DNA of 64,000 nt from Macrostomum lignano. Its lineage: Eukaryota. The stretch's first letter is position 1; every line of letters starts with the position of its first letter. The stretch is from contig NIVC01000157.1 of NCBI GenBank assembly GCA_002269645.1, forward strand, positions 62,001 through 126,000, given 5' to 3'. Shown piece by piece: positions 3,898 to 53,041 of the stretch. A program made the translations under genes and the position numbers. The notes below the pieces were generated by a model, which did not search any database, was not told where the DNA came from, and saw nothing but the letters and a program-made list of their open reading frames with translations.

Positions 3898-6443
3898 TTC
3901 CCAAATGACACAAACACTGTAATTATGCCGCTCCAACTCGCGAGTGAACCACTCGGTCTCGTGGCGAATGTGGCTCAGAGGCTGCCGTTTGAGCGGGTGG
4001 ACGACATCCTGATCGGGCATACACTGCTCGCAGCCATGGTAGAAACAACCATGAAACTGCAAGACAGTGTTGCTAGTCTCATCAAAGCCGTCCACCTTGC
4101 GGCCGAGAATGACCGCCTCGCCGCCATTCGAGTCGCAGGTGCGCAGCCGCCCGCCAAATTCGGTGGCATTCAAATAGGCCAGCCACTTGCGCGCCTTGAA
4201 TGACTGCTGGTCGGCCTGCCGGGCAATCACGCCGACCGAGTTGGGCTCCATGAATTTAGTAGTAAACACGGCCATTGCTAAACTGGCAATCGTATTGGCC
4301 TGAACAAACGGTTCCAGGCCGTCGCAAATGTCGCCAATTATCGACCTGTACTTGATGCAGCCCTCGCGAAGCAGGACTGTGTCACTCAAACAATAATCGA
4401 GATACTCCCGATTAAAGTTGAACAACTCGCCCTGTCGCGAGGCCAGCCAAGCACAGACGGAGTCGTAGTCATTGTTTGCCTTGCCGCCATAATATTCAAT
4501 AGCCGGGTAGGGGCCCACGTAGTTCCAATTAGCAGGCTTGTTGAACTCGTGGGGAAAGATCCCCCTGGCCAGCTTTGTGTCAGCGAGCCCCAGCGCTTTG
4601 GGGGATTGCGCAAGCGGGATTGGTATAAAGTTTAACGAATCTTTAAATACCAATTTATCAACAGTCATGCTCATTAGCCGGCTGCCCTGGAACAGTACTT
4701 GGGGCCGCTTCTTGGCCAGGCCGATGAGCAGAGCGCCAAGCAGTAGAAACGCATCATAGCCTGATGCATTGTGCGCGACAACAATGGCGCCGCCACGGAA
4801 AGTGGTGCTCAGCCAGGCGAAAAACGCATTCAGCGAGGCCGGGCCCACAGCCACAAAATCGGCCATTTGGCAGGCGCAGTCTGAGTGGCTGACGCAATTG
4901 GAGAATTCCTTCCCCAGATCGCGGTCAGTCAGACAGTTGGCGGCGCTATGCAGGCCATTGCAGAGGCGGCAAGTCTCGCGAGGAAACGACCGGCCAGAGC
5001 AGGTCTCGCAGCACGTGACGGCAGTCACCAGATGCACGTGATGCTGCTTCTCCTCGTCTGTGTACGTTTCCGTATCGTAGAACACGTACGGCATAGTTGA
5101 AGCTTTCACTTTGGGAGCCTTGACGAAACACAAATGCGAGCCGGCCTCGTCGTACTGTTTACACAGTGGGCACTTGACATGCCCGCACTTGTGTTCCGGC
5201 TCCTTTTGCCCGACTTTTAGCTCCTCCTGATAACCGCAATTAGCGCATACACGGACAGAGTCGCAGCGCGAACGGCCGGCCCGGTTTTTCTGGCGGTGAT
5301 TATTAAAGCACTGCGGATTGTAACATTTTAACCCGCAGTCTGGGCATCGCTTATAGTCACACCGCAGGCTCTTGCAATTGGCGCCGGGCGCTTTGCATTG
5401 AGGGCAGGTGTTGGCGCACTTGTGCCCTCCAGACACGCAGTCGTACGGCTGCTGGCAGCGGTCACAATAGCGGCGGGCTCCGAAAAATGGCGGCACCTTG
5501 CACACCGCGTTAAAGTGCTCGCCAATTAGGTGCAAATTCAGCACTGTGCTGCCTGGTAGGGCATACACGCATGTATTGCCCTCCTCTGCGCTGTACACAC
5601 GAACGCCTAAATCTCGGCCGGGCGACTGGGCGTTCAGAACAGCCAGCAGTTGGGGGAGCACATCAACCCCGAAAGGCCCGGCCTGTGCAATGGTTGATAA
5701 AGACTAAAACATTTGTATATTAATAAAAATGTAAATTAAAATGTGCAAAATTATTTTTTACTTACCGAATACAATTTGGCGGCAATCTGAAGTTCCTCAG
5801 TCAGCTTCGTCTGCAGTGGGGAGTCGGCCTTGATTGTTTGCCACGTATGCTAAGTGATGGCCTTGGCCAGCATGTCCGCGAAAGCCTTGGCGACAATCAG
5901 CGCTCGAATTAAACAGCGCTTATCGCGGTTGGCGATGACGACGTAGCTGTTGCCCATAGCATGCCTGGCCTGGATGTGGCGCTCCATAACAAAAACAAAA
6001 CAAAAACAAAAAACAAAAACAATTTAAAGTTGTTGCCCAAGACGCTGGAGTCCGACTGCAGCACCTTGTTTATATGCTTGAAAACAAGCTCTGCAGTGAA
6101 GCGGCTGAGGCGGACTGGCGGCACGTTAATAGTGAGTAGCATATTATCGGCGGTCAGCTTGGCTGCGACGAAATCGTTAGCGTGCAAGTCACTGCAGAGT
6201 GCCGAAATTATATCCGCAAACGTGGCGCGAATATCGGTAGTATTTGTGAAGGCTACTTCATACTCACACTCTTTTGCCTTAAATTTTGGCAATGCCTTTG
6301 CCCCGCCCAGGCGTGCAATGAAGCCTGAAAAATGGAGGGTTTGAAATTAGAATTGCGAGTGAATGACTCATGAAATAAAATCAACTCCTTACCATCGCCT
6401 TCAACAGTGTCGGGCTGGGGCGGGGGTTGAAATTGAGCCAAAT
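3898..6443 (-). pseudogene. polB: pPolB copy B (micro-exon 2, exon 3 and most of exon 4; 3'-truncated)
   Basis: Micro-exon 6443-6393, intron 6392-6325, exon to 5766, intron 5765-5683. Then Cys-rich region, ExoI YDTETY, ExoII HNASGYD and ExoIII YCLSD. Broken at VIWE (3898). Exon 3 has a deletion replaced by (TTTTG)n. Confidence 0.9.
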
Positions 6444-13392: not shown

Positions 13393-13815
13393 TGTAATCC
13401 AATTATAACTGACGATTCAATGTACATTTTGCAATATTAAATTAGTAAAATCTATTTATTGTACATAATTTGCATTGTAATACTGCTGTATTTATCAGAA
13501 TTCATTTGCTGTATATATTTCAATGTAAAATAAAACATTTATATTTTTATTCAATAAAACAAAAAAAAACATAAAACATTTTTGCATTGCGTGTGGCGAA
13601 ATGCCAATGTAAAAATCTATTGTACATATTTTGCATGTCAAACCTGTTTAAAATCATTTATGAAGAGAAAATTATTGAAAAAACAATGTAAAATTTTCTG
13701 TATATTCTATTTGCTGGTGATGGTGTACATGTCTTGATTCCTGTAATATGCTACTGATTAAATGTAAATATATCTTCATTGTAAATATTTATACATGATG
13801 TGCGCTACACGGTTA

Positions 13816-14209
13816 GTTGACTCATTTGGTAGTAGATGAGATTAGTAATTCTCACCTCTGTGTACATGTAGCATTGTACATGTAATGTTGGTGCTCGCGG
13901 GACGTCTGGGGATGACACTGTAGATTAATGTAAGTGTACATATAGAATTGGGGATAGACATGGACATTTGAGATATGGATTAATGTACATGGAATTAATG
14001 TACATATCCAATTTGAGATAGATAGGGAATAATGTACATGGAATTAATGTACATATATGAGCACATGGATTATTACAACTACATATTGCCATATCACGCT
14101 TAGGATAGCGTTTTTGTATACTACTTACTTCATTTTCAGATAGTAGTATAATTTGCGTTTTTTGCGTCAAAACATCTGAAAATCGACAACAATCTACGCG
14201 TTACGTAGT
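13816..14209. repeat. Terminal inverted repeat / end downstream of pol copy C
   Basis: Same sequence as 1914-2414; ends TTACGTAGT at 14209. Confidence 0.8.
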
Positions 14210-15045: not shown

Positions 15046-16606
15046 GAGGCACAATGGAGACACGTGCTGATAGGGGTTTTCTTAAATTTTACAATGTCTG
15101 CTGCGGCAGGATCTGTGTTATCAGGGTCATCAATCAAACATTTTTGACAGCCTAAAATTCGAAACGGGGGTCAATCAACCCCACATTTCTTTTGTTGCTA
15201 CGTGTCGGAACGTGCCGAGTTGGGGTTTTTACAACTCGCCGATTTTTGTTGCTTGGGGTGGGCTGATAAAATTGCTGCTGCTGCAGGCAATCAATCAAAA
15301 GTTTTTGACAGTTGTAAAATTCCAAGCGGTCAGAATTTTAGTCACCATGTGCATTTTTATTGCAGATTTGGCTCAATTTCAACCCCCCACCCCAGCCCGA
15401 CACTGTCGAAGGCGATGGTAAGGAGTTGATTTTATGAGTCATAAACCTGCCGCCGCCTCTCGCAATTCTAATTTCAAACCCTCCTATTTTTCAGGCTTCA
15501 TTACGCGTCTTGGAGGGGCGAAAACCCTGCCTAAATTTAAAGCAAAAGGATATGAATACATAGTATCGTTCACGGCTGATATTGTAGATGTTGGCTCAAC
15601 GATTGCAGAGGTTATTTCTGTACTCTGCGCAGACCTACACACCAACGATTTCGTCGCAGCTAAACTAACGGCGGACAACATGATGCTCGCCATCAATGTC
15701 CCACCCGTCCGCCGCAGCCGCTTCACTGCAGAGCTTGTTTTCAAGCACATTAACAAGGTTCTGCAGTCGGACTCCAGTGTCTTGGGCAACAACTTTAAAT
15801 TGTTTTTGCTCAAGGCCTGGGTCCCGCGGGGCGGCTGCGGCAGCCTAGATGCGGCGGAGAAACACATCCAGGCTCGCCATTCAATTGGGGGACGAAATTA
15901 TGTCATCATTGCCAACAGCGACAAGCGTTGTCTCATCCGGGCGCTGGTGGCGGCCAAGGCCTACGCGGACATGGAGGCCACGACAATTAATAGACAGGCT
16001 TAACGGACCATCAAGGCCGACTCCCCACTGCAGAAGAAGCTGACTGGGGAGCTTCAAATTGCTGCCAAATTGTATTCGGTGAGTAAAAGATAATCTTGCG
16101 CATTTTAATTTGCTTTTTTATTAATATACAAATATTTTAGTCTTTATCAACCATCACACAGGCCGGGCCTTTCGGGGTTGACATGCTACCCCAACTGCTG
16201 GCTGTTCTGAACGCCCAGTCACCCGGCTGGGATTTCGGCGTTCGTGTGTACAGCGCGGAGGAGGGCAACACGTGCGTGTATGCCCTGCCCGGCCACACGG
16301 TGCTGAATCTGCACCTAATTGGTGGGCATTTCAATACTGTGTGTAAAGTGCCGCCATTTTTCGGGACCCGCCGCTATTGCGACAACTGCCAGCAGCCGTA
16401 CGACTGCATCTCTGCTGAGCACAAGTGCGCCAACACCTGCCCTCAGTGTAAAGTGCCCGGCTCCAATTGTAAAAGCCTGCAGCGTGACTACAAACGCTGT
16501 GCTGACTGCGGAATGAATTGTTACAATCCGCAGTGCTTCGAGAACCACTGCCAGAAAAACCGGGACGGCAGGTCTCGCTGCAGCTCCATACGCGTCTGCC
16601 CCAAAT
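15046..16606 (+). pseudogene. polB: pPolB copy D (part of intron 1, micro-exon, exon 3, start of exon 4)
   Basis: Micro-exon 15366-15417 (52 nt, +1 frameshift), introns 15418-15494 and 16079-16161, premature TAA at 16001-16003. Truncated at RVCPK and fused tail-to-tail with copy E. Confidence 0.9.
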
Positions 16607-19600
16607 TTAGAAGCCTGCTGCAGCCTCCGTACACACGTTTCGTCAGGACCCGTTGAAAGGTCTTCTCCATACTGATCGTATGAATGGTACAAGACGCCTT
16701 GTCGCGCCTGAATTGAAACTGCGGCAGCTGCAGGGAGCGGCCGTGTAGCAGGGTGTTGCGCAGGTCGTCGCTGCGTTCCCGAATCTCCGGAGTCAGGCGG
16801 ATGCCCTTGCATTTCAGGACCTGGCTCTTGACACCGGCCGCATCCTCGACGATGTAAGTGTAGAGCTTGGGCCCCCACTTACAAAGTCGGTCATCCGGCT
16901 GCCTGCGGGCACCTCATCGGTCCACATTCCGAGGCTCGTGCCATGGGGCGGCTCCCATTGGCCCTCGGAATGCCGGTAAACGACCCTGTGTGGGGGAGAG
17001 AAAAACGAGATAATTAGTTCCACATGCTAACTATTCAATTCTAAAAGAATTTTTCCAATGCAATACTTACGAGTCAGTGTCGCAGTAAATGGCCCGTTCG
17101 CCGAGCCCCTCCAATGCCTCGTACAGGCGCAGCCGGGCCTGCGTGGTCGTAAAGACTCCGATTGGCACATTGGAGTACCTGAATGGCCGCTGATTAAAGT
17201 AGCGGTGCCGGTACTCTAGCAGCATAAACTCGCTGCCAATCGGTTCGCAGGCCTTGACTTTGAGGTTGGGGTCGGTCAGCCGGGCGAGCCAGTCCTCGTA
17301 GCTGGACACAATCTCAGTCGATGTCAGGTCGTCACGCTGACAAAATTTGCCCCAGAGCCTGTGTTGTGAAAAGAGGTGCTACTGTTAGTAGAAGAAAATC
17401 ATTTAAAAAACTGAATTTATAATTACTTACGAATTCAAAAAGATTTTCGCTACAAAGCGAAGTCCTGGGTTGGGCTCGACCTTGTCCAGCGTGACACCCT
17501 CCTTGGCGTAAAAATCGGCAATATAGGCTGCCCTATCTTCATCCGACATGCCGGGGGAGCCGCTCGATTCGGCCTTCAGTTTGAGGAAGGCATTCACGTC
17601 ATCACCAAACAGACGGGTCCGCTTTTCTGTCCAGTAGGCCAGCGCGTGCACCGCCTGCAGACGGCAGCCCAACTGGAAGGCCTTTTGCAGCTCCGGCGTT
17701 GCCCAGGTGCCAGTCAGCGCCCGTTCCTGGTCTGAGTGGTCGCAGCCGCTGCACTGCTGCTGCTCCATACAGGTACGGCAAAGCCCAAAAAAGAGCTTCT
17801 TTTGCACCCTGCATGGCAGCAGCGGAATATGCAAATCTGACGGCGGCAGCACAGTCACTTTGGCAATGCCAGAGTAGCTAGCCAGCGCGTCCGAGTTGAG
17901 CGTCTGCGGTGTCGGATGTTGCACCGGGTGGCCAATCGGGTATGGGTCTTTCGACTGCACCGTCGGGTACAGAGAGACCTGCAAGTTGAAATAAAGCATT
18001 TTTTTCATAAACTGTATTTTTGCAAAATATTCTACTATATTAGTAGTATCACTACTCACCACATCCCGATATTTGAAAGTCTCAGTCTCGCTGGCCACAG
18101 CATGCGGGATAAAACACTCTACGCGGCCGCCGTAGAGCGCATCCTCCATCTTGAGTGGAGCGCGCAGATGGGCAGTTGCGGCGATAAAGTCGGCCTGCGA
18201 TGCCAATACAGCGTCGTACTCATGCTCCCAAATGACACGAACACTGTAATTGTGCCGCTCCAACTCGCGAGTGAACCACTCGGTTTCGTGGCGAATGTGG
18301 CTCAGAGGCTGCCGTTTGAGCGGGTGGACGACATCCTGATCGGGCATACACTGCTCACAGCCATGGTAGAAACAACCATGAAACTGCAAGACAGTGTTGC
18401 TAGTCTCATCAAAGCCGTCCACCTTGCGGCCGAGAATGACCGCCTCGCCGCCAGTCGAGTCGCAGGTGCGCAGCCGCCCGCCAAATTCGGTGGCATTCAA
18501 ATAGGCCAGCCACTTGCGCGCCTTGAATGACTGCTGGTCGGCCTGCCGGGCAATCACGCCGACCGAGTTGGGCTCCATGAATTTAGTAGTAAACACGGCC
18601 ATTGCCAAACTGGCAATCGTATTGGCCTGTAAAAACGGTTCCAGGCCGTCGCAAATGTCTCCAATTATCGACCTGTACTTGATGCAGACCTCGCGAAGCA
18701 GGACTGTGTCACTCAAACAATAATCGAGATACTCCCGATTAAAGTTGAACAACTCGCCCTGTCGCGAGGCCAGCCAAGCACAGACGGAGTCGTAGTCATT
18801 GTTTGCCTTGCCGCCATAATATTCAATAGCCGGGTAGGGGCCCACGTAGTTCCAATTAGCCGGCTTGTTGAACTCGTGGGGAAAGGTCCCCTTGGCCAGC
18901 TTTGTGTCAGCGAGCCCCAGCGCTTTGGGGAATTGCGCAAGCGGGATTGGTATAAAATTTAACGAATCTTTAAATACCAATTTATCCACCGTCACCCTGG
19001 AACAGTACTTGGGGCCGCTTCTTGGCCAGGCCGTTGAGCAGAGCGCCAAGCAGTAGAAACGCATCATAGCCTGATGCATTATGCGCGACAACAATGGCGC
19101 CGCCACGGAAAGCTGTGCTCAGCCAGGCGAAAAAAGCATTCAGCGATGCCGGGCCCACAGCCACAAAATCGGCCATTTGGTAGGCGCAGTCTGAGTGGCT
19201 GACGCAATTGGAGAATTCCTTCCCCAGATCGCGGCCAGTCAGACAATTGGCAGTGCTATGCAGGCCATTGCAGAGGCGGCAAGTCTCGCGCGGAAACGCC
19301 CGGCCGGAGCAGGTCTCGCAACACGTGACGGCAGTCACCAGATGCACGTGATGCTGCTTCTCCTCATCCGTGTACGTTTCCGTATCGTAGAACACGTACG
19401 GCATAGTCGAAGCTTTCACTTTGGGAGCCTTGACGAAGCACAAATGCGAGCCGGCCTCGTCGTACTGTTTACACAGTGGGCACTTGACATGCCCGCACTT
19501 GTGATCCGGCTCCTTTTGCCCGACTTTTAATTCCTCCAAATAGCCGCAATTAGCGCAGACACGGATGGAGCTGGAGCGCGAACGGCCGGCCCGGTTCTTC

Positions 19601-21835
19601 CTGCGGTGATTGTCAAAGCACTGCTGATTGTAGCACTTGAGGCCGCAGTCAGCGATGCGCTTATAGTCGCACAGGCTTTTACAATTGTAGCCGGGCACTT
19701 TGCACTGATAACAGAGGTTGGCACACTTGTGCTCAGCGCAGAGATGCAATCGTACGGCTGCTGGCAGCTGTCACAGTGGCGGCGGGCTCCGAAAAATGGC
19801 GGCACTTTGCACACAGTGTTAAAGTGCTCGCCAATTAGGTGCACATTCAGCACTGTGCTGTCTGGTAGGGCATACACACATGTATTGCCCTCCTCGGCAG
19901 TATACACACGAACGCCGAAATCCCGGCCTGGCCACTGGGCGTTCAGGACAGCCAGCAGTTGGGGGAGCACGTCAACCCCGAAAGGCCCGGCCTATGCAAT
20001 GGTTGATAAAGACTAAAACATTTGTATATTAATATAAATGCAAATTAAAATGTGCAAGAACATTTTTACTCTTCGAATACAATTTGGCAGCAATTTGTAG
20101 CTTCCCAGTCAGCTTCTTCTGCAGTGGGGAATCCGCCTTGATGGTTTGCCACGTATTCTTAGTAATGGCCTTGGCCTGCAGATCCGCGTATGCCTTGGCC
20201 TCCACAAGTGCCCGGATTAAACAGCGCTTGTCGCGGTTAGCGATGACCACGTAGTTATACCCCATAGCATGCCTGGCCTTGATGTGTTTCTCCTTAACAT
20301 CCAGGCTGCCGCAGCCGCCCCGCGGGACCCAGGCCTTGAGCAAAAACAATTTAAAGTTTTTGCCCAAGACACTGGAGTTCGACTGCAGAACCTTGTTTAT
20401 ATGTTTAAATATTAACTCTGCAGTGAAGCGGCTGCGGCGGACTGGCGGCACGTTAATAGTGAGTAGCATATTATCGGCGGTCAGCTTGGCCGAGACGAAA
20501 TCGTTAGCGTTCATATCCGCACAGAGCGCAGAAATGATGTTCTCAAATGTGGTTCGAATATCGGTAGTATCGGCGAACGATACCACATATTCAAAACCTG
20601 CGGCTTTAAATTTAGGCAGGGCTTTCGCTCCGCCAAGGTACGCAATAAAGCCAGAAAAATTTGAGGGTTTGAAATTAGAATTGCGAGAGGCGGCGGGTGA
20701 ATGACTCATGAAATAAAATCAACTCCTTACCATCGCCTTCGACAGTGTCGGGCTGGGGCGGGGGTTAAAATTGAGCCAAATCTGCAATAAAAATGCGCAT
20801 GGTGACTAAAATTCTGACCGCTTCGAATTTTTAAAACTGTCAAAAACTTAATTGATTGCCCTGCTGCAGCAGCAATTTTATCGCCCCACGCCCAAGCAAC
20901 AAAAATCGGCGAGTTGTAAAAACCCCAACTCGGCACGTTCCGACACGTAGCAACAAAAGAAATATGGGGTGGATTGAACCCACTTCGAATTTTAGGCTGT
21001 CAAAAATGTTTGATTGATGACCCTTGATAACACTGATCCTGTCGCAGCAGAGATTGTAACATTTAAGAAACCCCCCTATCAGCACGTGTCTCCATTGTGC
21101 CTCCTTGACACCTAGCAACAATACCGCGCGGCCGCTAAAGCTGTCATAAATGTCTGATTAATAACCTTACCTGTAGCAGCCAAGTTTTATTGCTGCCAAA
21201 ACCCCTACAATTGCAGCGGTGATTACATCATCATGATCAAAAAAATTTTGGGGTTGATTTTATCACTGCCACCTGCCCACCCGCTGAGTCACGTTCGCGC
21301 GCGCGCGCTCGCCACAGAATTGCTGTTTTTGCTTCTCTAGTACAAGGATTAGTCATATAGCCCCCTGAAATTTTATGGCTATCCTCTACACACATTATTC
21401 GGCTATACTGCTGCTGCGGATATTCTCTAAAACTCTGTTATTTCATTAGGCAATTAAGAAATCCGAAAACAGTTTCCTCCCTTTACTTCAACATCTATGG
21501 CAGGAGGACAGCCTGACTTCAGAAATTTTAAGCCAAAATGAATGCTAAAGCTGTAAAGCAATTACAGAAATTTTAAGCCAAAATGAATATTAAAGATGAA
21601 AAGCAGCTGTGGTTTCAAAGAAAGCCCATATTTCAACAAGCGTGAGTTTGCAAATCACACAAATGCTAAAGCTGAAAAGCGCAATTATACAGCCCTATTT
21701 TTCTGATTTTAGATTTTGCAAATGCTAAAGATGAAAAGCATAGTTTTACGTGCGCGCAGAGACTCACCTAGCTGTCGTCCCCTCTTTGCGGCCGGAGGCT
21801 GATGCTGCTGCTGCTGCTGCTGCTGCCTGTACTCT
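16607..21835 (-). pseudogene. polB: pPolB copy E (end of exon 1 through exon 7)
   Basis: Exon-1 remnant RQQQQQQQHQPPAAKRGRQL with donor at 21767, intron 1 21767-20782, micro-exon 20781-20731 and motif-A intron 18059-17979. Lesions: intron-2 acceptor CAG>CTG, intron-3 donor lost, 17-nt deletion at about 18990 and further frameshifts. Confidence 0.9.
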
Positions 21836-22238
21836 GGATACATACTTCTACATGTGCATTATTCCACTTCTACATGTACAGTGTCATACATTAATCCCAA
21901 GACGGCCCACGCGCGCCCTGTATATGAATCACCAAGATTACGTGTACAACTCGAAACCCTACTACACGTACAGTTGTACAATCTCATCTACTACTGCCAA
22001 ATGAGTCAACACCCAAGTTTACAAAGCACGTTATATGCACATTACCATTTATATGTCAATTATTCAAAACCTACATGTAGCTGATTACACTATATACTAC
22101 CTTTAGTAGAGTTACGAGTCAAGATTCTATTGAAAAAGATTGTATTCATATAGTTTTCAAATTTGAAAAGTGTATATTTTTTCATTTTAATAGTTGAAAC
22201 AGAGAGCAAAAACAGCAGGGGCAACAGCAAGTTGAGAC

Positions 22239-22702
22239 TTAATTATAGCCTGTACTACCAAACCCCCTACACCGCGAATTGAGTGGCTGCTACTGGAAGT
22301 AACCTCCCCTTCGCCATTTCCCCTATAGAGATCCTTTACAACTACGGGAGCAATCATTACACGCTCCAAAACTAATTAGGCGATACGGTAGCCCCGAGTT
22401 ATGAACCAGTCCGCACTGCCATGATTAAATATCACCACAGTCAATTCCCCAGTATAGTCAGGGTCAATCACGCCGGCGCCCACTTGTATAGACTTGCGCA
22501 ACGCCAGTCCAGACCGGCCGGCAATCCGAGCGTAGGTCCCATCAGGCGGTTGGATTGAAATTCCGAGAGGCACCTGCGCAACAGACCCGGCCCGGACAAC
22601 AGCATCCTCAGAGGCAAAGAGATCGTAACCAACAGAGCCGATCGTCTGGCGAGCCGGCGGGCAGGCGCCTTCAGTCAGCAGCGACACCTTTAAAGCAGCC
22701 AT
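22239..22702 (-). pseudogene. dut: dUTPase (full length, disabled)
   Basis: MAALKV... with motifs GYDL, GRSGLA, GVIDPDYTGE and RIA*L (CAA>TAA at 22376-22378), plus a 1-nt deletion in motif 5 relative to the 14.2 kb copy. Confidence 0.93.
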
Positions 22703-23060
22703 GATGACGTAGCTGGAATTGGTGAGTTCGCGGTTATAATCAGTCACAGTGTTTACACACACAGAATGTTTTATAGTTTTTTTCATTCATTCTAAATATC
22801 ATTACTTGAAAAATGGTAAAAATCTCAACACAGTATTCAAATTTTACAAAACAATTTCTTTGAAACTAATGAGCGAGGTGCATTTGGATAACGCATGTGT
22901 GCATACACAACATTTAATACTATAGCGAGTTGAGATATATAGTATGGAGTGCATGAAAATTTAGATTGAGTGCAGACACGACACTTGATAAAAACAAGAT
23001 ATGTACAAGGTGCATGAAAATAAAAATGTGTGCAGACACAACATTAAATTGTCAATAATA

Positions 23061-23719
23061 TTAACAAAGCCCCGAGCCGGGGAATAGTCTGTCTAAGTCT
23101 TCAGCGACCTCCCCATGGAGGTCAGCCTCATATTCGGCCCTCTCCCTTTTCGCGGTGTAATAAGCCCGCTCCTCAGAGGGGCTTCCAAAACAATAGTCCG
23201 CTAGCTAGGAAAAAAAGAAAATGGGTGGAAAAGTTTTCCGATATAATGCATTGAAATTTTGAGTCGGCAATTAGTTTTTAGTTGCAAAATGAAAAGTTTT
23301 CGAGTAAAATGCATTCATAGTCAAATCTGCAATTATTTACCATGTCCAAGTCTGGCTCGCGACACCAACGCCGCAAAAATTCTTGGTAGGCGGCCTCTTC
23401 GTCAGCTGCGGCAGCCGCCTTTCCACTAGCAGCAGCGTCAGTACTGTGCAACTGCAGCCCCATCCGAGGGGCTAAATTAATCCCCAATCGGCAGCGGCTC
23501 GTCTTCTTCTTCTTCATTTGCGGTTGTTGTTGCCGCGGATGCTGATTCAGACTGCTGCCTTCAATAGTCGCGGCGGCGGCGGCGGTGGCGACTGCGGCAT
23601 ATTCACAGAGGCTGGCCCCCAGCAGCCCACAGCCATTACCAGGCTGGCAACATTCGTTGCCGCAGTAGCTACCGCCGCACCAACCTAGAAAGTCGTCAAT
23701 GCTGCTGCTGTCGCCACTG

Positions 23720-23751
<32 letters not shown>

Positions 23752-23967
23752 GTTGCCGCTACTACTGTTGCTGCCGTTGTTGTCAGATTTGTTCGACAGA
23801 GTTAAAACTGGTTAGGCAGTAGAGCGAGGCGGGTTCCAGCCTACTCGGCCGCCCCCAACCCCGCACTACATGATTAAAGGGGTTCTGCCGCCGCAAGGTA
23901 GCGCTACCGCCACCGCAACTAACTGTGGCGGCTCTTCTTCTTTTACACTGCTGCTGCTTCTGTTCAT
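23061..23967 (-). pseudogene. Orphan gene Y with terminal intron (23340-23205) and 47-aa exon 2
   Basis: ...EEAAYQEFLRRWCREPDLDM|LADYCFGSPSEERAYYTAKRERAEYEADLHGEVAEDLDRLFPGSGLC*. The GT...polypyrimidine-TAG junction is in phase 0; exon 1 has stops or frameshifts. Confidence 0.65.
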
Positions 23968-24355
23968 TGTGCTCGTGGGTGTGGGAGTTGATCGCAAATT
24001 TTCAATTTGAAAAGATTTTTAGTCGCGCAGGGGTCCCTCTTTTAAAGTGATTTTGAGTGGCCTCCTATTGGCTCCCCCGGCCTCACAGCCCCCGCCAGCC
24101 AGTCAGTCTGCCGGCCGGCCTGCCCACAGCCAGCGAGTTAGTCAGTCTGGCTCAAAAACAGCGAGCTAATAACTATCTGTTTTAATAATAAATTTCAGTC
24201 TCAAAATTTCAGAGACTCAGTTGCTTTCAATTTCAAAACAAATGAAATAAGACCATTTTTATTCCAGATATGTCATTATCAGTGCCAGTTTATTAAAAAG
24301 ATGGTTTCACTTTCATATTATTAGAGTCGATGTAATTGCAGAAACGCAAATTCCC

Positions 24356-25470
24356 AGCAGCGGACTGGGCTGTTCGTTGATTATGTGAACACCTTCTGTT
24401 GTACTCGCGGGCTGCGATCTCGTCTAGCCCGGTCGTTTCGTTTTCCCCGGGTAGCGGGTTCGGTGCGGGACTGCCCCGGGCGCGCGGCGGAGGGATGGAC
24501 AGAAGGCGAACGACTGGCGCTCCTCGAGGCGGATGGCCACTCCGAGGGGAAGAGGGAGAGATGCGACCCGGGGCGCACAGGCACTCCTCGGTCACGGAAG
24601 GCTCGGGGTACTGCCGCGGTCAGCGGAGCGGATAGCCACTCAGTGCCGGCCCGGGAGTCACCGAGGAGATTGTGAAACGAGGTGAATGTGAAGGATTGGC
24701 CGGGGCGTACAGACACTCCGGACCAATCAAGAGATACGAGGTGATGGATTAGCTGGGGCGTACAGACACTCCAAGCCAATCGGAGAGCGCAGGTGAGCAA
24801 GGGGGTGAGTAGGTGAAGCGATGAGGCGGCGAGGATGGAGAGAAGACACGTGCAGAGAGCCCAAAAAAACGCGAACGCAACCCGAATAAACGTAATTTAA
24901 GCTCACCGGGCGGGGTCAAACCGACTCATGCAACGCAGTTTATTTGGCCGTAGTAACTGTTCTGGCAGCTCGGAGACGGCGGGTGGCACGGATTAGCTTG
25001 CTACGAAGTGTTCCGATAGTTTACTGGGCTCGTGCAGTTTTGTACTTTTATGATATTTTTCTTACTCAGTTGCTGGTGTAGCTCTAACCGCAAAAACCAA
25101 GCAGCGTGCCACCGGCCGGCTCCAAGCCAGCTAATAAATAGTATGCGAAAATGGGGGAGTGGGCCAAACCGGCCTGAGCGCAAATACTCACACAACAGAA
25201 CCCCGCGAGCACCCCACCCTAGCCCAGCCAATCAAAACATGCGCTGGGTAAGGCTTTACGAACGAGGGGGGTAGAAAAGCGAGGGTCTGCCGGCCCAGCC
25301 AGCCAATCAGAGCACACGCCGGCTGCCTAAAACCAAAGCCGGCTGAACCAACTCAAACCAGCTAGGCCGGCAGACCGGGCGGTTCGCATGCACCAAAAAA
25401 AACAAGTTGATGAGAAGGTCATTGTGGCGCAGGCCACAACACTTCCTCAAGCTGAAAGCCGAATCGAGCT
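24356..25470 (+). pseudogene. polB: About 70-bp pPolB filler fragment (QRTGLFVDYVNTF|LKLKAES) split by a solo LTR
   Basis: 24356-24396 and 25442-25470 join into contiguous exon-5 sequence. Confidence 0.8.
24397..25441. mobile_element. Solo LTR (1045 bp), Gypsy-like by target duplication length
   Basis: Termini TGTTGT...ACAACA with 4-bp target site duplication CTTC (24393-24396 and 25442-25445). Internal CCAAT-like and AATAAA motifs; no coding signature. Confidence 0.85.
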
Positions 25471-25640
25471 CAAATAATCCCCACAAAAAGCAATGATTAT
25501 ACAACCCACACAAAAGAGTTTTTTATCAATTGTCTTAATCATTATCATTGAGCAAAAGGCTACGAATATGAATACTCCCACAAAAGCAATGATTTTACAG
25601 CCCACACAAAAGAGTTTTTTAGCAATTGTCTTAATCATTT

Positions 25641-26432
25641 TCACCCGACACGCATTGTGGGCAGCTGCTGCAGTTTGGCCTTGTCGCTGCTGTAGATTAG
25701 CTTAATTCGCTTGTTCTGCTCCTTGATCACAGCGGCCCAGGCAGCAAAGGCCGGCTCGTGGGGCCCAATCTGATGGGCCGGGGTCTTGAAAAGCTCTTCA
25801 TCAGTCAGGCCGGCAACCCAGCTCTCGAGCTCAGTCGAGTCCGGGGGATACGAGTGCCACCACTTGTAGCTGCTGCCGCTGCCGCTGCCTCTGCCGCCGT
25901 CAGTCGTAGAAAGCTTCTTCACCTGCGGCTGCAGTTCAATCGGTGGCGGGGTGCCAGCACTGCGGCGGCGGTTGCCATCGCCGTCACCATCATTGCTGCT
26001 GCTGCCGCTGTTAAACCACGATGATGGCTCCGAAGCCGTCTTGGGCGGCGGCGACTGCGAGGCAAACCGCGAGTCAACGTCAGCATCCATCAGAGCAGTC
26101 CACAATTCGGGGGTGAACCTGATTGAGTATTTCCAGCGCTCGCGCTCATTGCAGCCTCCGTTGGAGTCGGCAGGGTTGTTGCGATGTAGCCAAACCTGGT
26201 TATTTTTCACTCCCAGAATCTTGCGGCCCTCACCCAGTTGAAACTTATGACGAGAGCAGTCGAGCATTCCCCGAGACTCAATAATCGGCCGAGCCCTCTT
26301 GAGATGCTGCCACTCGATGCGAGTCAGAAACACGCCGGGGAAGCCGTGCTTGTAGTTGCCGTTCTTGTCAGTGTAGAAACGCCGAATCTCAATCAGTTCT
26401 CGATCAGTATCGAATGTGGGCTTGCGCACCAT
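25641..26432 (-). CDS. PC4/Sub1-like ssDNA-binding protein (263 aa, apparently intact)
   Basis: LIEIRRFYTDKNGNYKHGFPGVFLTRIEWQHLK resembles the PC4 core ([28 protein letters not shown]). A second, weaker repeat is WKYSIRFTPELWTALM. TATA box at 26551-26560. Confidence 0.65.
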   Translation of the reverse strand: MVRKPTFDTDRELIEIRRFYTDKNGNYKHGFPGVFLTRIEWQHLKRARPIIESRGMLDCSRHKFQLGEGRKILGVKNNQVWLHRNNPADSNGGCNERERWKYSIRFTPELWTALMDADVDSRFASQSPPPKTASEPSSWFNSGSSSNDGDGDGNRRRSAGTPPPIELQPQVKKLSTTDGGRGSGSGSSYKWWHSYPPDSTELESWVAGLTDEELFKTPAHQIGPHEPAFAAWAAVIKEQNKRIKLIYSSDKAKLQQLPTMRVG

Positions 26433-26550
26433 AATTGTCAACAAGTGGAATAGACATTTTGACAGAGTTTCACGGAGATAGAGCTGTTGCAAAGAGTGTC
26501 GGAGCGAGCGAGCGCGAGAGAATTCTGAAAAATCTCTCAGCAGCATGGTC

Positions 26551-26833
26551 GTTTATATACCCGCGAAAGCGACTGTACTCTGAGGAGATGAGGCTGCGGT
26601 CTGCATTTTTCGTTCCTACAGCACTACCGGTTGGTTAGATACACTCAGATCCAATTAAAATCCGTATGAGAACGAAAATGATGGGGTATTTTCAGACTTG
26701 ATCTTTTCTATACCAAGTTGCGGTCTGAGTGTACAATTGTACACTAATTTGCAAATGCAGTACAAGGGAAAGAGAAATAATGCACACGCGCTCTCTGCTT
26801 TTGCAGCATCCCCTTCCTGCAGGGGTATTTAAA
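26551..26833. promoter_or_regulatory. Bidirectional promoter: PC4 TATA (-, 26551-26560) and pol TATA-like TATTTAAA (+, 26826-26833)
   Basis: Two outward-facing TATA motifs lie between divergent ATGs at 26432 (-) and 26927 (+). The same layout recurs at about 53037-53300. Confidence 0.6.
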
Positions 26834-26926
26834 GGAAATTGTAGGAGCATCACCAGTCACAGCCGCTTCCGCAGCATCAGCAGCATCAGCCACAATCGCA
26901 GCAGCATCAGCAGCAGCAGCAGAAGC

Positions 26927-27613
26927 ATGGCATCGAAGCGTTCAGCTGCTGAAGCCGCCATTTCAGCCTTGTGGGGGCAGGCCGGCCCATCCAGGCAGCA
27001 GCAGCAGCAGCAGCAGCAGTCACGGGGTATCAGCCTCAGGTCGAGACCAGCCTCTACGCCGATGACAGCGCCCTGCTGGCCCTGGACCGCAAGCTAGACA
27101 ACTGCGCGAGCAAACTCCAACCGGCTCTCGACGCGGTCCAACGTTGGTGCGAGCGCTGGAAAATGCTGCTGAGCCCAGGCAAATGCAGCTACAGCACCTT
27201 CAGCCTCAGCCCAGCGGAAAATAGAGGCAAGGCTCGGCTCAATGTCAGCATCGGCAACAAACAACTGGCCTTTGAGCCCCACCCAGTCTTCCTTGGGGTG
27301 AAACTCGACGATCACCTCGGCTTCGCCGAACACGCCTAAGACATTCGCCGCCGCATGGCCGCCCGCAGACGACCCCTTCAGGCCATTGCTCACCGCCAAC
27401 TGGGCGCAACTCAAGACATCCTTCGAGCGGTCTACACCGCCACCGTGCGCTCAGTGGCCGACTACGGCAGCGGAATCTGGCTGGCGGGAGCAGCCCCGAG
27501 CACCCGACTCATGATTGAACGACAACGAACGGCGCCGGTAATGCGAGCGCTGAAGTAGAAGAAGAAGAAGCAGCAGTCACAGCCTCCGGCCGCAAAGAGG
27601 GGACGACAGCTAG
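26927..27613 (+). pseudogene. polB: pPolB exon 1 (poly-Q plus basic NLS-like motif), interrupted by a LINE fragment
   Basis: MASKRSAAEAAISALWGQAGPSRQQQQQQQQ...QPPAAKRGRQL, then G|GTGAGT at 27614. The phase-1 donor matches the phase-1 micro-exon acceptor. Confidence 0.7.
27038..27530 (+). mobile_element. Internal fragment of a non-LTR retrotransposon reverse transcriptase
   Basis: YADD at 27055-27066, followed by RWCERWKM...PGK...FLGVKLDDHLGF and the downstream thumb/tether-like region. One in-frame stop; no 3' tail. Confidence 0.88.
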
Positions 27614-28210
27614 GTGAGTCTCTGCGCGCGTAAAACTATGCTTTTCATCTTTAGCATTAGCAAAATCTAAAATCAGAAAAATAAGGCTGTATAATTGCGC
27701 CTTTCAGTTTTAGCATTTGTGTGATTTGTAAACTTAACGCTTATTGAAGTATGGGCTTTCTTTAAAACCACTGCTTTTCATCTTTAAAATTCATTTTGGC
27801 TCAAATTTTGGCTTAACATTTGTGTAATTGCTTTTTAGCTTTAGCATTTGTGTGATTTGCAAACTCACGCTTGTTGAAATATGGGTTTTCTTTGAAACCA
27901 CAGCTGCTTTTCATCTTTAGCATTCATTTTGGCTTAAAATTTCTGAAGTCAGGCTGTCCTCCTCCTGCCATAGATGTTGAAGTAAAGGGAGGAAACTGTT
28001 TTTGGATTTCTCAATTCAGGCCTAATGAAATAACAGAGTTTTAGAGAATATCCGCAGCAGCAGTATAGCCGGATAATGTGTGTAGAGGATAGTCATAAAA
28101 TTTCAGGGAGCTATATGACTAATCTTTGAACTAGAGAAGCAAAAACAGCAATCCTGTGGCGCGAACGTGACTCAGCGGGGCGGGCAGGCGGCAGTGATAA
28201 AATCAACCCC

Positions 28211-47100: not shown

Positions 47101-48110
47101 TAATAACCAGCTTTGTCTGCTAGCTCAATAACACCAAAGGGCAAGGCCAACTCAAGTTCCACCCCCCAAGGAACACCAGTTACACCACAGCAGCAGCAAC
47201 AGCCTATATCTGCATCATTTATGCCCCAATCAAAATGCCCAGCAGATGACCCAAAGGCTAAAGAGTTAACAAGGGATCTTGGTAAGTCTACTACTAGTCT
47301 GACCAGTAATTCTTTTTTCTAAAGACAGTCTAAAAGTACACTTCAAATAGGCTTGTAAAATACCCCCTTTTCCCACCCACCCTCTTCTTATGGCAGAGCT
47401 TATTGCGTTCGACAGGGAGCCATTTAGTCAGGTTGAGCGACTTGGATTCTCGAGGTTCTTGGCGAAGCGTTTCCCACGCTACTCCATTCTATCCGCCGAC
47501 AAAATGGCGAAGGTTGCTGTGCCACAGCTATACGATTCTGTTCGCCAATCAGTCGAGAGTGTGCTAAAAGATAGTACATCTTTCGCCCTTAGCACAGATG
47601 GCTGGACATCAGCTTGTGGTTCATTTGAAGTCATAGGGCTTGTTATGCACTTTATTGCTCCAAGTGGAAAGCTGGAGCAGGTAACGCTCTGCTGCTCCCA
47701 AGTTCCTGGTTCACCAACAGGCGAATGTATTGCAGAGGTTGTGAGAAATGTGAGTAAATTTGGAAAACAAAAAGGAAAAAGTAAAAAAAAACTGATATTG
47801 ATAAATATCAATGATGAATAATTTTGAGCTAGCCACAGAAATATGTTGTTAAAAGATGAGAGTAGCATAAGGAGAGTAGAATAGTGCAAAAGCATCAATG
47901 CTTTTTTCTAAAGCTGGCCCTTTAGTTAAAGAATTTAGTATATTTGGATTACGTGTACATTTGGAGTTTATTGTAAAAAACTCCAAAAACTCCAAACTTT
48001 TATAGGTGTTATCTGACTGGCATCTAATGGATGCAATTGTTTCCGTTATCACTGATGATGGACCAAACGTGAAGAAAGCAATCCGACTGGGCCTTGCTAG
48101 GCACTCGTGC
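47100..48110 (+). pseudogene. hAT (Ac/ZBED-like) transposase fragment with introns
   Basis: LIAFDREPFSQVE..GF..F...FPRY, FALSTDGWTS and ITDDGPNVKKA...HSC. GT donors at about 47282 and 47749; truncated before the pol copy G. Confidence 0.85.
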
Positions 48111-48159
48111 GTCCTATATCGACTGCCGATTTGCGTTCATACAGTTTTGCCTCAGAAGG

Positions 48160-50858
48160 CAATGATTGTGGGCTAAATTGCTACAATGCTCAGTGCCTTG
48201 AAAATCACAAGCGCAAGAATAAGGCTGGTAGATCGCGCTGTGATTCGGTTCACGTTTGCGGGACGTGCGGCTATCTGGAAGAGCAAAGAGTAGGCCAGGC
48301 CCCCGAGCATCAGTGCGGTCACGCCAAGTGTCCAGTCTGCAAGCAGTACGCAGAAACTGCCACCCACGAGTGCTTTGTCACCCCGCCCAAAGCCAAAGAA
48401 TCTAGCGCCCCGTACGTTTACTACGATTTTGAGACGTACGTAGACTCTGACAAGCAGCACCGGGTACACTTGGTTACGGCAGCTACCTCGTGCGAGTCGT
48501 GTCCCAAACTCTTCCCCAGGCCCTGCTGTAGCGCGTGCGGGGGGTTGCACAGCTCAGCCAATTGCATTGCGGGACGCGATTTGGCGCGCGATTTTACTGG
48601 CTGTGTCTCCCACAATGACTGCGCTTGCGGGATGCGAGAGTTTGTTTCGGTTGGGCCGCACTCTATCGATGCCTTTTACTGCTGGTTGACTAGTGTGTTC
48701 AAGCAGGGGGCTATTGCTATTGCGCACAATGGCTCCGCGTATGACGCATTCCTCCTGCTCGGAGCCCTACTCAACGGACTGGCCAAGAAGAAGCCCCAAG
48801 TGATCTTCCAGAATAGCCGTTTAATGTACATGAAGAGCGACAAGATCACAACATTCAAGGACAGCCTCAACTTCATTCCTATTGGTCTGGCGCAATTCCC
48901 AAAGGCGCTTGGTTTAGGCACCCAGCTGACCAAGGGAGATTTCCCGCATGTGTTTAATCAACCGCAAATTTAGGACTACGTAGGGCCTTACTGTTCGATT
49001 GAAATGTACGGCGGGAAGAAAAACAAGCAGCATGACTCCATCGCAGACTGGCTGGCCAAGCAGGAGGGTCAAGTGTTTAATTTCAACAAGGAATACTTGG
49101 ACTACTGCCTGCAAGACACTCTAATTTTGCGGGAAGGGTGTCTAAAATACGCACGCCTGATTAAGGACATTTGCGGACTGGACGCATTTGTCCAATCTAA
49201 CACCATTGCAGGCTTGGCCATGGCTGTTTTCACTACCAAGTTTATGGAGCCCAACACTCTTGGGGTGATTTCCCGCCGGTCAGATGTGCAGTCGTACAAG
49301 GCGCGGTGCTGGCTTGCACCTTTGAATGCAACCGAGTTTGGTGGCCGGTTGCGGACAGCCGACTCTGGCGGCGAGGCTTTCGCCATGGGTCGAAAGGTGG
49401 ACGGCTTCGACCCAGAGACTAGGACAGTGCTCCAATTCCACGGCTGCTTCTATAATGGCTGTCCCAAGTGCTTCCCCAACGGCGACGTGCTGCACCCGCT
49501 CAAAAACCAGCCAATGCGGGCAATTTATGAAGAGACTGAGCGCTTCACTCGACTGCTCTCCACGGCCTAAAATGTACGTGTCCTGTGGGAGCACGACTAC
49601 CAGGACGAGGGAGCGCCAGTCCAGCCGCCTATTCGCCTGGAGGAGGCCCTATTTGGCGGCCGCACCGAGGCTTTTGTCCCGCACGCCGAGGCCACCGAGA
49701 CTGTGGAGCTGTGCTATCGGGATGTGGTAAGTTTCTCTTGCACAGTTTACTATACTAAATCTATATTCTACTACAACTACCACCACTTTCCCTTTAGGTG
49801 TCGCTCTACCCGACTGTCAACAAGTTTGACAAGTACCCTGTCGGGCACCCGGTTCACCACCCCGAGCCTCATCTACTGGATGAGGCTGGCCCGGTACTTT
49901 GGCATCGCCGAGGTCTCGATTCTGCCGCCTACCAATCTCCACATCCCGCTACTGCCCGCCAAGATTAGCAAGAAGCTGGTTTTCGGCCTCTGCCGCGTCT
50001 GCATGGAGACCCAGTGCAGCAGCGAGTGTACACACACTGACGCTGAGAGAATGCTCCGCGGTACATGGTCGACCCCAGAGCTCCACAAGGCCCTGCAGTT
50101 GGGTTACATGCCGCAGTCAGTTCATGCCCTGGCCTATTGGGCCGAGACTCGGAGCGGGCTGTTTGCAGACTATGTAAACACCTTTTTGAAGCTCAAGGCC
50201 GAGTCTAGCGGTTCGCCGGGGATGACTGAGAACGCCAAGGCCGCCTACATGGCCAGCTTTTTCGAGCGCGAAGGTGTCCGGCTGGAAAAGGTGGAAGAAA
50301 ATCCTGGCCTGCGCTTTGTTGCCAAGATTTTTCTAAACTCGTAAGTTGGGGTTTCTACTTGCCGTGGGGGACGTGTTTTTCTACTTACAGTAGCCAGATA
50401 TACCTACATATTCCCTAAAACTGCAGGCTCTGGGGCAAATTCTGCCAGCGCGACGACTTGACCTCCACGGAGATTGTGGACAGCTACGAGGCGTGGCTGC
50501 AGCGTCTGACGGACCCGTCCATCAAGGTCAAGTCGTGCGAGCCTGTCGGGGAGAGCTTCATGATGCTCGAATTCAAGCCCCGAATTGGTGGTGCTGGCGA
50601 GCGGGCCTTTAAGTACGCCAATGTACTAATTGGCGTTTTCACCACCTCCCACGCCCGGCTGCGACCATACGAGGCTTTGGAGGGCCTAGGGACCCGAGTC
50701 ATTTACGCTGATACTGATTCGTAAGTAATTTTTCCCCCTGTCTCTGTCTGTTTCCCACCTTAACACTATATCCTCCTGCTCCACAGGGTCGTGTATCGGT
50801 GCTCTCCCGGCCCGTACGAGCCTCCCGGCGGTTCGAGTTTGGGGCAGTGGACTGATGA
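48160..50858 (+). pseudogene. polB: Diverged pPolB (family 2, copy G), exons 4-7, inverted relative to its own 5' exons
   Basis: YDFETY, HNGSAYD, YCLQD. Introns 49727-49797, 50341-50426 and 50721-50786 sit at the same codon positions as in family 1 (RDV|VSLYP, LNS|LWGK, YADTDS|VVY). Nonsense codons at 48971 and 49568, and a frameshift at about 49885. Confidence 0.92.
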
Positions 50859-51220
50859 GGCCACAAATTGCAGGTAGGCGCAGGCCACAACTAGAGCTCG
50901 CAGCAGGCACCTCTTATCCGTGTTGGTAATGTGGACATAGTGCTTGGAGAAGGCATGGCGCTCCTCCAGAAGCTTGTTCTCGAGGGCACAGCCAACCTGA
51001 GGCACCCAGGCCTTTAGCAGACGGATAGAAAAGTTGCCCGTCAATACAGTGGCATCCGACTGCACAATCTTGTCAATGTGCTTAAACAACAACTCTGCTG
51101 TCATGTGGGCTGCACGCACCGGGGGAGTATGGGCCGCTTTGAGCATGTTGTCGCTCTCGAATTTCGCGGCCATAAAGTCTTCCCCCGCCAAATCCTGCTT
51201 AAAGACATCGAGCATGTCGG

Positions 51221-52900: not shown

Positions 52901-53041
52901 ATAGAAGCTCGCTGCTGCAGCAACTCAAAACCCGTCTAGACTGATAAACAACCGTCGGAAATTAATTAAAACTTACCATAAAGACGTTGCCTCTTGTCAG
53001 CCAGGAAAGCTGTCGATGCTGCGCTGCGTTTAGTCATTTTG

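What the first reader, a model, noticed from the sequence alone, without database searches (positions are those of the whole stretch)
20731..27614. Seven-exon pPolB model with a poly-Q/NLS first exon and a conserved micro-exon, missed by the ORF track
Seen: family 1 exon 1 (MASKRSAA...QQQ...PPAAKRGRQL), an intron of about 986 nt and a 51-nt micro-exon (DLAQFQPPPQPDTVEGDG) all join in phase 1. Family 2 has matching exons MTKRSAA...DKRQRLY and DAFVPPAQPESVTGPG (45 nt), also in phase 1. The spliced product is about 1300 aa. Inference: host-like gene architecture with a nuclear localisation signal, kept under selection across two diverged families.
Basis: partly seen in the sequence, partly recalled or inferred. 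Interest (0 to 1): 0.8.

Follow-up and report, generated by a model that had tools for sequence, protein, structure and literature searches.

The report
Spliced polymerase in stripped-down Polinton transposons
Two families of small virus-derived jumping elements in a flatworm-like genome carry a DNA polymerase gene cut into seven exons that the host really splices, yet have no gene for inserting themselves or for a virus shell, so they depend on host splicing and probably on another element's insertion enzyme.

Summary
The seven-exon pPolB model is right, but no copy in the window is whole: the finding's coordinates join pieces of two opposite, broken copies. Genome-wide there are many copies (115 exon-3 matches); 9 of 40 examined have all seven exons in frame with GT-AG borders (1,276-1,319 aa). 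Contigs from three RNA-like runs of three studies skip introns 1, 2, 3 and 5 (intron 4 in two) of family 2, including both sides of the 45-nt micro-exon; the unlabelled control run shows none of these joints. Micro-exon dN/dS is 0.12-0.19. Poly-Q is family 1 only; the NLS is a motif match, untested. The larger point: the gene sits in ~9-kb elements with terminal inverted repeats, ACTAC..GTAGT ends and 6-bp target duplications (16 of 17), carrying a PC4-fold gene but no integrase, capsid or ATPase. Full-size Polintons in the same genome have unbroken polymerase frames and AGTAG..CTACT ends. Three introns split polymerase motifs A, B and C. Best reading: self-replicating, integrase-borrowing mini-Polintons adapted to nuclear, spliced expression; helper not identified. 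New variant of a known kind.

The parts
26927..27613 (+). Family-1 pPolB exon 1, copy E (basic N-terminus, poly-Q, NLS-like C-terminal motif), interrupted by a retroelement fragment
27024..27580 (+). 5'-truncated non-LTR retroelement (RVT_1) inserted in exon 1, 11-nt target duplication, (GAA)n tail
27614..28210 (+). Start of intron 1 of copy E, then a deletion joint into the middle of exon 5 (28211 on)
25641..26552 (-). PC4-like gene of family 1 (tandem PC4 fold, predicted ssDNA binder), head-to-head with pPolB
23278..23811 (-). Unnamed low-complexity ORF of the left arm; its end resembles the last left-arm exon of family 2 (by eye)
22376..22786 (-). dUTPase gene of the family-1 left arm (premature stop in this copy)
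21768..21824 (-). 3' part of exon 1, copy D (5' part lost at a joint with the inner TIR of copy E)
20782..21767 (-). Intron 1, copy D, 986 nt, GT-AG, phase 1
20731..20781 (-). 51-nt micro-exon 2, copy D (in-frame stop in this copy)
20074..20651 (-). Exon 3, copy D: terminal-protein domain and first half of vOTU protease; both splice borders non-canonical in this copy
18060..20012 (-). Exon 4, copy D: rest of vOTU, Cys-rich region, exonuclease, VSR-like insert, up to motif A; broken (7 stops)
17431..17978 (-). Exon 5, copy D: motif A to motif B
17071..17358 (-). Exon 6, copy D: motif B to motif C
16613..16985 (-). Exon 7, copy D (end lost at a rearrangement)
6393..6443 (-). 51-nt micro-exon 2, copy A, open; source of the peptide quoted in the finding
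15366..15417 (+). Micro-exon 2, copy C, 52 nt (out of frame)
13777..14209 (+). Family-1 terminal inverted repeat ending ..TACGTAGT (further ends at 2414 and 15045)
52977..53037 (-). Family-2 exon 1, 61 nt, bipartite-NLS-like, no poly-Q
52278..52322 (-). Family-2 micro-exon 2, 45 nt
   Evidence: joints in RNA-like contigs
48101..50860 (+). Family-2 exons 4 to start of 7, inverted against exons 1-3 and broken
53323..53847 (+). Family-2 PC4-like gene, head-to-head with exon 1

Best explanation
These are two old sister families of mini-Polintons (about 9-9.7 kb). SHOWN: each is bounded by terminal inverted repeats with ACTAC..GTAGT ends and a 6-bp target duplication; a seven-exon pPolB gene and (all but some family-1 copies) a PC4-fold gene face away from a shared promoter region; family-2 transcripts are spliced at the predicted joints; all exons are under purifying selection; no integrase, capsid or ATPase was found inside. 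INFERRED: the spliced mRNA gives a polyprotein [basic tag + linker (exons 1-2)] - terminal protein - vOTU protease - exonuclease - VSR-like insert - polymerase. Exon 1 takes it into the nucleus; the terminal protein primes replication at the ends of an excised linear copy; vOTU cleaves behind the terminal protein, so the basic tag stays on the DNA-bound piece; the PC4-fold protein coats the displaced strand. New copies are inserted by a retroviral-type integrase borrowed from another Polinton family. The same machinery moves gene-less palindromic derivatives that carry the same ends. The window is a heap of broken, nested and inverted copies.
For: Gene model. Splicing: GT..AG joints for introns 1, 2, 5 and the intron-3 joint in 3 of 3 RNA-like runs from three studies, intron 4 in 2 of 3, a PC4-gene intron in 3 of 3; 0 in the control run. 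Selection: dN/dS 0.02-0.27 for all 13 exon sets tested. Domains: PF03175; exon 3 has invariant Ser, Gly and Cys against 40 homologues, folds at pLDDT 86.7 and repeatedly matches the little-finger domain of Y-family polymerases (Z 6.6, rmsd 3.0, 89 aligned), the fold reported for this terminal protein, which is followed by vOTU (10.1101/2024.03.18.585575, passages). PC4: Pfam at cut-off, top PDB fold match human PC4 (E 5.6e-3, probability 1.00). Ends and 6-bp duplications: 16 of 17 elements with both ends in view. TIR arms 92-100% alike in most: recent insertions. Helper candidates are abundant: 73 capsid, at least 102 integrase matches, and several unbroken pPolB frames of 1,100-1,480 aa.
Against: No helper was identified, and the three full-size families whose ends were read all end AGTAG..CTACT or ..ACTACT, unlike the mini-elements, so cross-mobilisation would need a tolerant integrase. 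The runs are only guessed to be RNA and also cover introns; the intron-6 joint is not among the rows shown (8 rows hidden). Fold matches for exon 3 are middling (Z under 8; Foldseek E >= 4e-3). NLS function, protease activity and extrachromosomal copies are untested. Two complete family-1 elements show no PC4-like gene. dN/dS used only stop-free exons of modal length, which favours low values.
Confidence: 0.7

Rival explanations
1. Bipartite or dedicated-helper system: a partner element with the same ACTAC..GTAGT ends, not yet seen, encodes the integrase (and perhaps capsid), possibly itself split by introns and so missed by family searches.
For: End motif differs from all three full-size families read. 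The TIR core has 296 matches (control 0); 30 of 36 pairs among the first 100 listed span 7.5-11 kb and most hold no pPolB. A hybrid TIR at L099 points to a third family whose interior was not read.
Against: The 13 pPolB-free stretches with these ends that were compared gave no match to any Polinton protein held and are mostly palindromic; none of the 101 integrase candidates scored (of 1,926) or 73 capsid matches falls inside a listed TIR pair (compared by eye, only 100 of 296 TIR places listed).
Confidence: 0.2
2. The elements insert without an integrase, using their own VSR-like nuclease or host repair.
For: No integrase inside; the polymerase carries a VSR-like insert like its closest named relatives (10.1101/2023.08.22.554363, passages).
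Against: Exact ends and uniform 6-bp duplications at unrelated sites (16 of 17) are the signature of full Polintons in the same genome and in print (PMC8097293).
Confidence: 0.07
3. A domesticated, host-serving polymerase gene with ordinary host architecture.
For: Six spliceosomal introns, spliced transcripts, purifying selection.
Against: Dozens of dispersed copies, most broken (31 of 40 not shown whole), each with TIRs and its own target duplication; nested in and by other elements.
Confidence: 0.03

Closest known systems
Polintons/Mavericks of animals (PMC8097293: passages and section 7 read; 10.1101/2022.07.12.499685: passages)
   Same: Protein-primed family B polymerase, terminal inverted repeats up to 1.4 kb, 6-bp target duplication, short repeated end motif.
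   Different: About 9 kb against 12.7-24.6 kb; no integrase, ATPase, capsid proteins or maturation protease found; six introns where both papers call the core genes intronless; ends (ACT)2..(AGT)2 or ACTACG..CGTAGT, not one of the three motifs listed (the swamp-eel (AC)3A..T(GT)3 is the nearest).
pPolB2 with VSR insert of a marine nematode and molluscs (10.1101/2023.08.22.554363, passages)
   Same: Closest non-host homologues are about 30% identical and include mollusc proteins and two named VSR-like; the insert lies in the exonuclease-to-palm region.
   Different: The two families form their own long-stemmed clade (SH-aLRT 100, quick tree); no spliceosomal introns are mentioned for Polinton genes in that paper (2 hits for 'intron', both group I).
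TP-vOTU-EXO-PALM polyproteins of polintons and yeast cytoplasmic linear plasmids (10.1101/2024.03.18.585575, passages)
   Same: Domain order; candidate linking Ser and catalytic Cys invariant; capsid loss as in linear plasmids.
   Different: Nuclear, spliced, chromosomally integrated; extra basic first exon, absent upstream of the TP core in 25 of 25 homologues where the core could be placed.
Introner-containing Polinton-like proviruses of dinoflagellates (10.1101/2025.03.18.643946, first third read)
   Same: Spliceosomal introns inside Polinton-type elements.
   Different: Those are young, repeated introners gained mostly after integration; here six unlike introns sit at the same codon positions in two families about 64% identical in DNA, so they predate the split and travel with the element.
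Capsid-less Polintons (PMC4028283, passages: nine elements lacked MCP, protease and ATPase)
   Same: Concerted loss of the morphogenesis module.
   Different: Loss of the integrase as well is not mentioned in the passages seen.

Membership tests
Polinton/Maverick | [quoted passage not shown] | tested here: met
   PF03175 over cut-off on exons 4 and 5 of both families; motifs A, B, C present across joints
Polinton/Maverick | N-terminal TP followed by vOTU with catalytic Cys and His | tested here: met
   Invariant Ser, Gly, Cys in exon 3 and near-invariant His column; little-finger-like fold Z 6.6, middling; activity not testable
Polinton/Maverick | Long terminal inverted repeats | tested here: met
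   0.3-1.4 kb arms in coding elements, mostly 92-100% alike
Polinton/Maverick | 6-bp target-site duplication | tested here: met
   16 of 17 elements with both ends in view; one off by a base
Polinton/Maverick | Published end motifs (AGT)2//(ACT)2, (AG)3//(CT)3 or (AC)3A//T(GT)3 | tested here: not met
   Ends are ACTACT..AGTAGT (family 2) and ACTACG..CGTAGT (family 1) (motifs)
Polinton/Maverick | Retroviral-like integrase gene in the element | tested here: not met
   No room or match in a whole element read base by base; no tblastn match to two host Polinton integrases in complete family-1 elements; an intron-split divergent gene in unread derivatives is not excluded
Polinton/Maverick | Capsid proteins, packaging ATPase, maturation protease | tested here: not met
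   None of 73 PF21738 matches in a listed mini-element; no tblastn match to host MCP, penton or ATPase; protease not searched separately
Polinton/Maverick | Intronless core genes, 12.7-24.6 kb | tested here: not met
   Six introns, five seen spliced; 9.0-9.7 kb
pPolB2 with VSR insert | VSR nuclease domain inserted in the polymerase | tested here: inconclusive
   Region aligns with homologues named VSR-like and shares their conserved D-G and H-G-C columns; no Pfam VSR hit; not folded
Introner-made introns | Introns are repeated, mutually similar mobile sequences | tested here: inconclusive
   No intron-to-intron match in the window self-comparison; the introns were not searched against the genome
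Classical importin-alpha NLS | Drives nuclear import | not testable with these tools
   Pattern match only, patterns recalled
PC4-like ssDNA-binding proteins | PC4 fold | tested here: met
   PF02229 at cut-off; model with two repeats, best PDB matches human PC4, probability 1.00 but E only 5.6e-3; binding untested

The most novel reading that the evidence does not exclude
These are satellites of Polintons: spliced, self-replicating 9-kb genomes that borrow both integrase and capsid from a full-size helper (which would explain why even gene-less derivatives stay near 9 kb), and whose introns in polymerase motifs A, B and C were fixed because they break the DNA targets of nucleases carried by rival Polintons, a spliceosomal counterpart of inteins and group I introns in viral polymerases.
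Probability: 0.2. Interest if true: 0.87.

Novelty: new variant of a known kind. Interest (0 to 1): 0.64.

Why it matters
Core Polinton genes are described as intronless, and searches for them rely on long open frames, so intron-rich, integrase-less lineages would be systematically missed or dismissed as decayed. Here the splicing is seen in public sequence data, the elements inserted recently, and they live beside ordinary Polintons in what appears to be a laboratory flatworm, which makes three open questions testable in one animal: whether Polinton polymerases replicate linear copies in the nucleus, whether the terminal protein carries the import signal, and how non-autonomous elements borrow an integrase. 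The clustering of introns in the three catalytic motifs is unexplained and bears on how spliceosomal introns are gained and kept.

Tried and rejected
C234 locus as helper: it has an unbroken group-2-type polymerase beside capsid and integrase genes and an ACTAC-like motif, but the motif lies inside an internal inverted duplication, not at an end, and its polymerase does not group with the two families; dropped. Partner segment: pPolB-free elements with the same ends gave no Polinton protein match; a 14.4-kb one holds an unrelated nested insert. PF04665 found no ATPase in the genome by family search although ATPases are there: that search is insensitive. The rve family search was swamped by long retrotransposon-like frames. 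No relative in viral contigs. No RNA holder is on record as RNA; the runs used are guesses, judged by their joints. Intron 6: no joint among the rows shown, not evidence either way. Stop-free 3n intron 4 of family 1 (10 of 14 copies 3n) as a retention switch: not so in family 2 (1 of 18), about what chance gives among twelve introns; not pursued. The interior of the third TIR family at C175 could not be read. Literature searches: searches found no paper on these elements, on PC4-like genes in Polintons, or on conserved spliceosomal introns in a Polinton polymerase; the library lacks most subscription papers, Repbase and the 2006 founding paper (not held), and no supplements were read, so a prior Repbase or supplementary description cannot be excluded. 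Complex prediction and the metagenome scan were not used.
Full report
WHAT IS IN THE WINDOW. The window is G000:C157:62001-126000 of a 764-Mb eukaryotic assembly. The closest named proteins are UniRef entries labelled Macrostomum lignano, up to 96% identical, so the host is probably that flatworm. Positions 1-29,000 hold a tangle of nested, inverted and deleted copies of one pPolB family (85-95% alike) and 48,100-55,100 a second family about 64% identical in DNA. No copy here is whole. The finding's left end is the micro-exon of a minus-strand copy (D); its right end is exon 1 of a plus-strand copy (E). Between them lie intron 1 of D (986 nt, as stated), the 3' part of D's exon 1, and the left arm of E: dUTPase, an unnamed ORF and a PC4-like gene. 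D's micro-exon has an in-frame stop, its exon 3 lacks canonical borders and its exon 4 has 7 stops; E's exon 1 is split by a 557-nt reverse-transcriptase fragment.

THE GENE MODEL. Exon 3 has 115 matches in the genome; I fetched 20 loci of each family, chosen from the top of each identity band. The micro-exon is 51 nt in 19 of 20 family-1 loci and 45 nt in 20 of 20 family-2 loci, always CAG|..|GT. Family-2 exon 1 is 61 nt in 20 of 20; family-1 exon 1 was found whole in 6 loci (121-133 nt, all 3n+1), longer and out of frame in one, partial or missing in the rest. Nine of 40 loci have all seven exons in frame with GT-AG borders: 1,319-1,320 codons in family 1 (3 loci) and 1,277 in family 2 (6 loci); the other 31 are broken, truncated or not fully mapped by my anchors. 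All six introns lie at the same codon position and phase (1,1,0,0,2,2) in both families. Intron lengths vary and take all remainders mod 3 in most cases. dN/dS among stop-free, modal-length exons is 0.02-0.27; for the micro-exon 0.19 and 0.12, pooled 9 synonymous variants at 23 sites against 4 non-synonymous at 67 (p = 4e-4). Family-1 exon 1 was not put through this test.

SPLICING. Nineteen runs from seven studies hold the family-2 stretch; none is on record as RNA. I laid 4 of the 24 listed, three guessed RNA from different studies and one unlabelled, on L052:2100-8330. The three show joints that skip exactly intron 1 (743 nt, GT..AG), intron 2 (71 nt), intron 3 (with the two-letter variant found in other copies, fixing the upstream of two in-frame acceptors) and intron 5; two of three show intron 4; all three show a 75-nt CT..AC joint in the PC4-like gene on the other strand. 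The unlabelled run shows none of these. Intron 6 is not among the rows shown (8 hidden). Public gene models capture part of this: 19 of 46 hold the exon 2-3 joint, 1 the exon 1-2 joint, and only 2 any of exon 1, both in mid-protein.

THE PROTEIN. Exons 1-2 are a short basic, proline-rich leader. Poly-Q is confined to family 1. NLS-like patterns (recalled) match 6 of 6 family-1 and 20 of 20 family-2 exon-1 peptides and 0 of 25 homologues upstream of the same core (25 of 107 full-length homologues could be placed). Exon 3 aligns with the N-terminal part of 40 homologues with invariant Ser, Gly and Cys, folds well (pLDDT 86.7) and matches little-finger domains of Y-family polymerases many times over, at middling Z (6.6 at best among them); in the viral library the matches are weak, with adintovirus and mavirus proteins among the top ten. 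This agrees with the published TP-vOTU-EXO-PALM order, in which vOTU is proposed to cut behind the terminal protein (10.1101/2024.03.18.585575, passages). If so, the exon-1 tag stays with the DNA-bound terminal protein; working NLSs in phage terminal proteins are reported (PMC3609834, search listing only). Non-host homologues are about 30% identical and include mollusc and VSR-labelled proteins; a quick tree of exon 4 puts both families in one long-stemmed clade (careful search unfinished).

THE ELEMENT. Reading one locus in full showed an element of 9.0 kb with 1.4-kb terminal inverted repeats, ACTACT..AGTAGT ends and a 6-bp duplication, holding only pPolB and the PC4-like gene head to head. 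Two complete family-1 elements are 9.5 and 9.6 kb with ACTACG..CGTAGT ends. Sixteen of 17 elements with both ends in view have a perfect 6-bp duplication, each different but for one repeat. The PC4-like protein models as a tandem repeat whose best PDB matches are human PC4; distant relatives (about 30%) occur at dozens of other loci, one beside a full Polinton, so it probably came with the Polinton ancestor. Some family-1 copies also carry a dUTPase; two complete ones show neither gene. No integrase, capsid or ATPase match lies inside. Gene-less palindromic derivatives share the ends. The family-2 TIR core occurs 296 times (control 0); 30 of 36 pairs among the first 100 places listed span 7.5-11 kb, with or without pPolB.

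THE CONTRAST. The same genome holds several full-size Polinton families with capsid, ATPase and integrase genes and single polymerase frames of 1,100-1,480 aa. The three whose ends I could read use the standard AGTAG..CTACT type; one of them has inserted into intron 1 of a family-2 element. So introns are not simply what this host does to Polintons, and the helper is not identified. In print, intact vertebrate Mavericks are 12.7-24.6 kb with eight intronless ORFs and three end motifs, none equal to these (PMC8097293, passages and section 7); nematode Maverick core genes are called intronless (10.1101/2022.07.12.499685, passages). Introns in Polinton-like proviruses are known from dinoflagellates as young introners (10.1101/2025.03.18.643946, first third), and capsid-less Polintons are known (PMC4028283, passages).

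INTRONS IN THE MOTIFS. Introns 4, 5 and 6 fall in polymerase motifs A, B and C. Against 120 homologues these joints lie in the top 5.3%, 0.1% and 1.5% most conserved six-residue windows; introns 2 and 3 do not (with ten-residue windows 1.4%, 0.8-1.0% and 11%). The test is after the fact. Of 202 non-host homologues, 7 break off in or at motif B and 2 in motif C, at several different positions (counted by eye; DNA not seen, so introns are only one reading). Unchecked notes from other genomes in this scan report the same pattern and, separately, integrase-less mini-Polintons; these are leads, not support, and they suggest that neither trait is unique to this host. Inteins in family B polymerases also sit in these motifs (recalled). 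Why spliceosomal introns should do so is open; protection of DNA targets from rival nucleases is my boldest reading, survival of introns where imprecise loss is lethal the plain one.

VERDICT. Observation real, coordinates composite, interpretation partly supported. Gene model about 0.95; working NLS about 0.7; self-replication with a borrowed integrase about 0.7. It works like a Polinton replication module but fails the membership tests for integrase, capsid module, size, end motif and intronless genes. New variant of a known kind; interest 0.64.

Noticed in passing
window 17979-18059, 17359-17430, 16986-17070 (introns 4-6): The three polymerase-domain introns each split a catalytic motif (A, B, C); top 5.3%, 0.1% and 1.5% of conserved windows.
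   Followed up: partly
G000-wide: TIR-bounded elements stay at 7.5-11 kb (30 of 36 pairs) even when gene-less and palindromic; a length constraint (packaging or replication) is possible.
   Followed up: partly
L099:1-770: A hybrid terminal repeat (family-1-like first 30 nt, family-2 core) closing a 10.4-kb element whose interior was not read; perhaps a third family.
   Followed up: no
L031-L070, introns 3 and 4: These introns differ less between copies (0.004-0.044) than nearby four-fold sites (0.04-0.20) in matched pairs; constraint, gene conversion or an alignment effect.
   Followed up: partly
window 14209-14210: One family-1 element has inserted into the dUTPase gene of another; the window is a nest of self-insertions and inversions.
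   Followed up: partly
L078:5787 and L079:6715: A full-size Polinton (AGTAGT..ACTACT, 6-bp duplication, about 31 kb with whatever it holds) sits in intron 1 of a family-2 element.
   Followed up: yes
L093-L096, L103-L104: A Polinton family carrying a D5-like primase-helicase as well as a group-1 pPolB, and an integrase fused to a phospholipase-A2-like domain.
   Followed up: no
window 54218-55096 and 45319-46524: An unnamed family-2 left-arm ORF; a similar stretch is fused behind a zinc-knuckle-like region at 45319. No Pfam match.
   Followed up: no
L105-L106: A 14.4-kb element with family-1 ends holds two long foreign ORFs (769 aa; 542 aa with a CIDE-N domain), probably a nested transposon or cargo.
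   Followed up: partly
window 35534-36903, 47351-48100, 57004-57752: Fragments that look by eye like hAT-type transposases; not tested.
   Followed up: no
L111:174-215 and other family-1 TIRs: An internal AGTAGTATA motif about 85 nt in from the end resembles the terminus of a full-size family in this genome; could be a helper-integrase site or a relic end.
   Followed up: no
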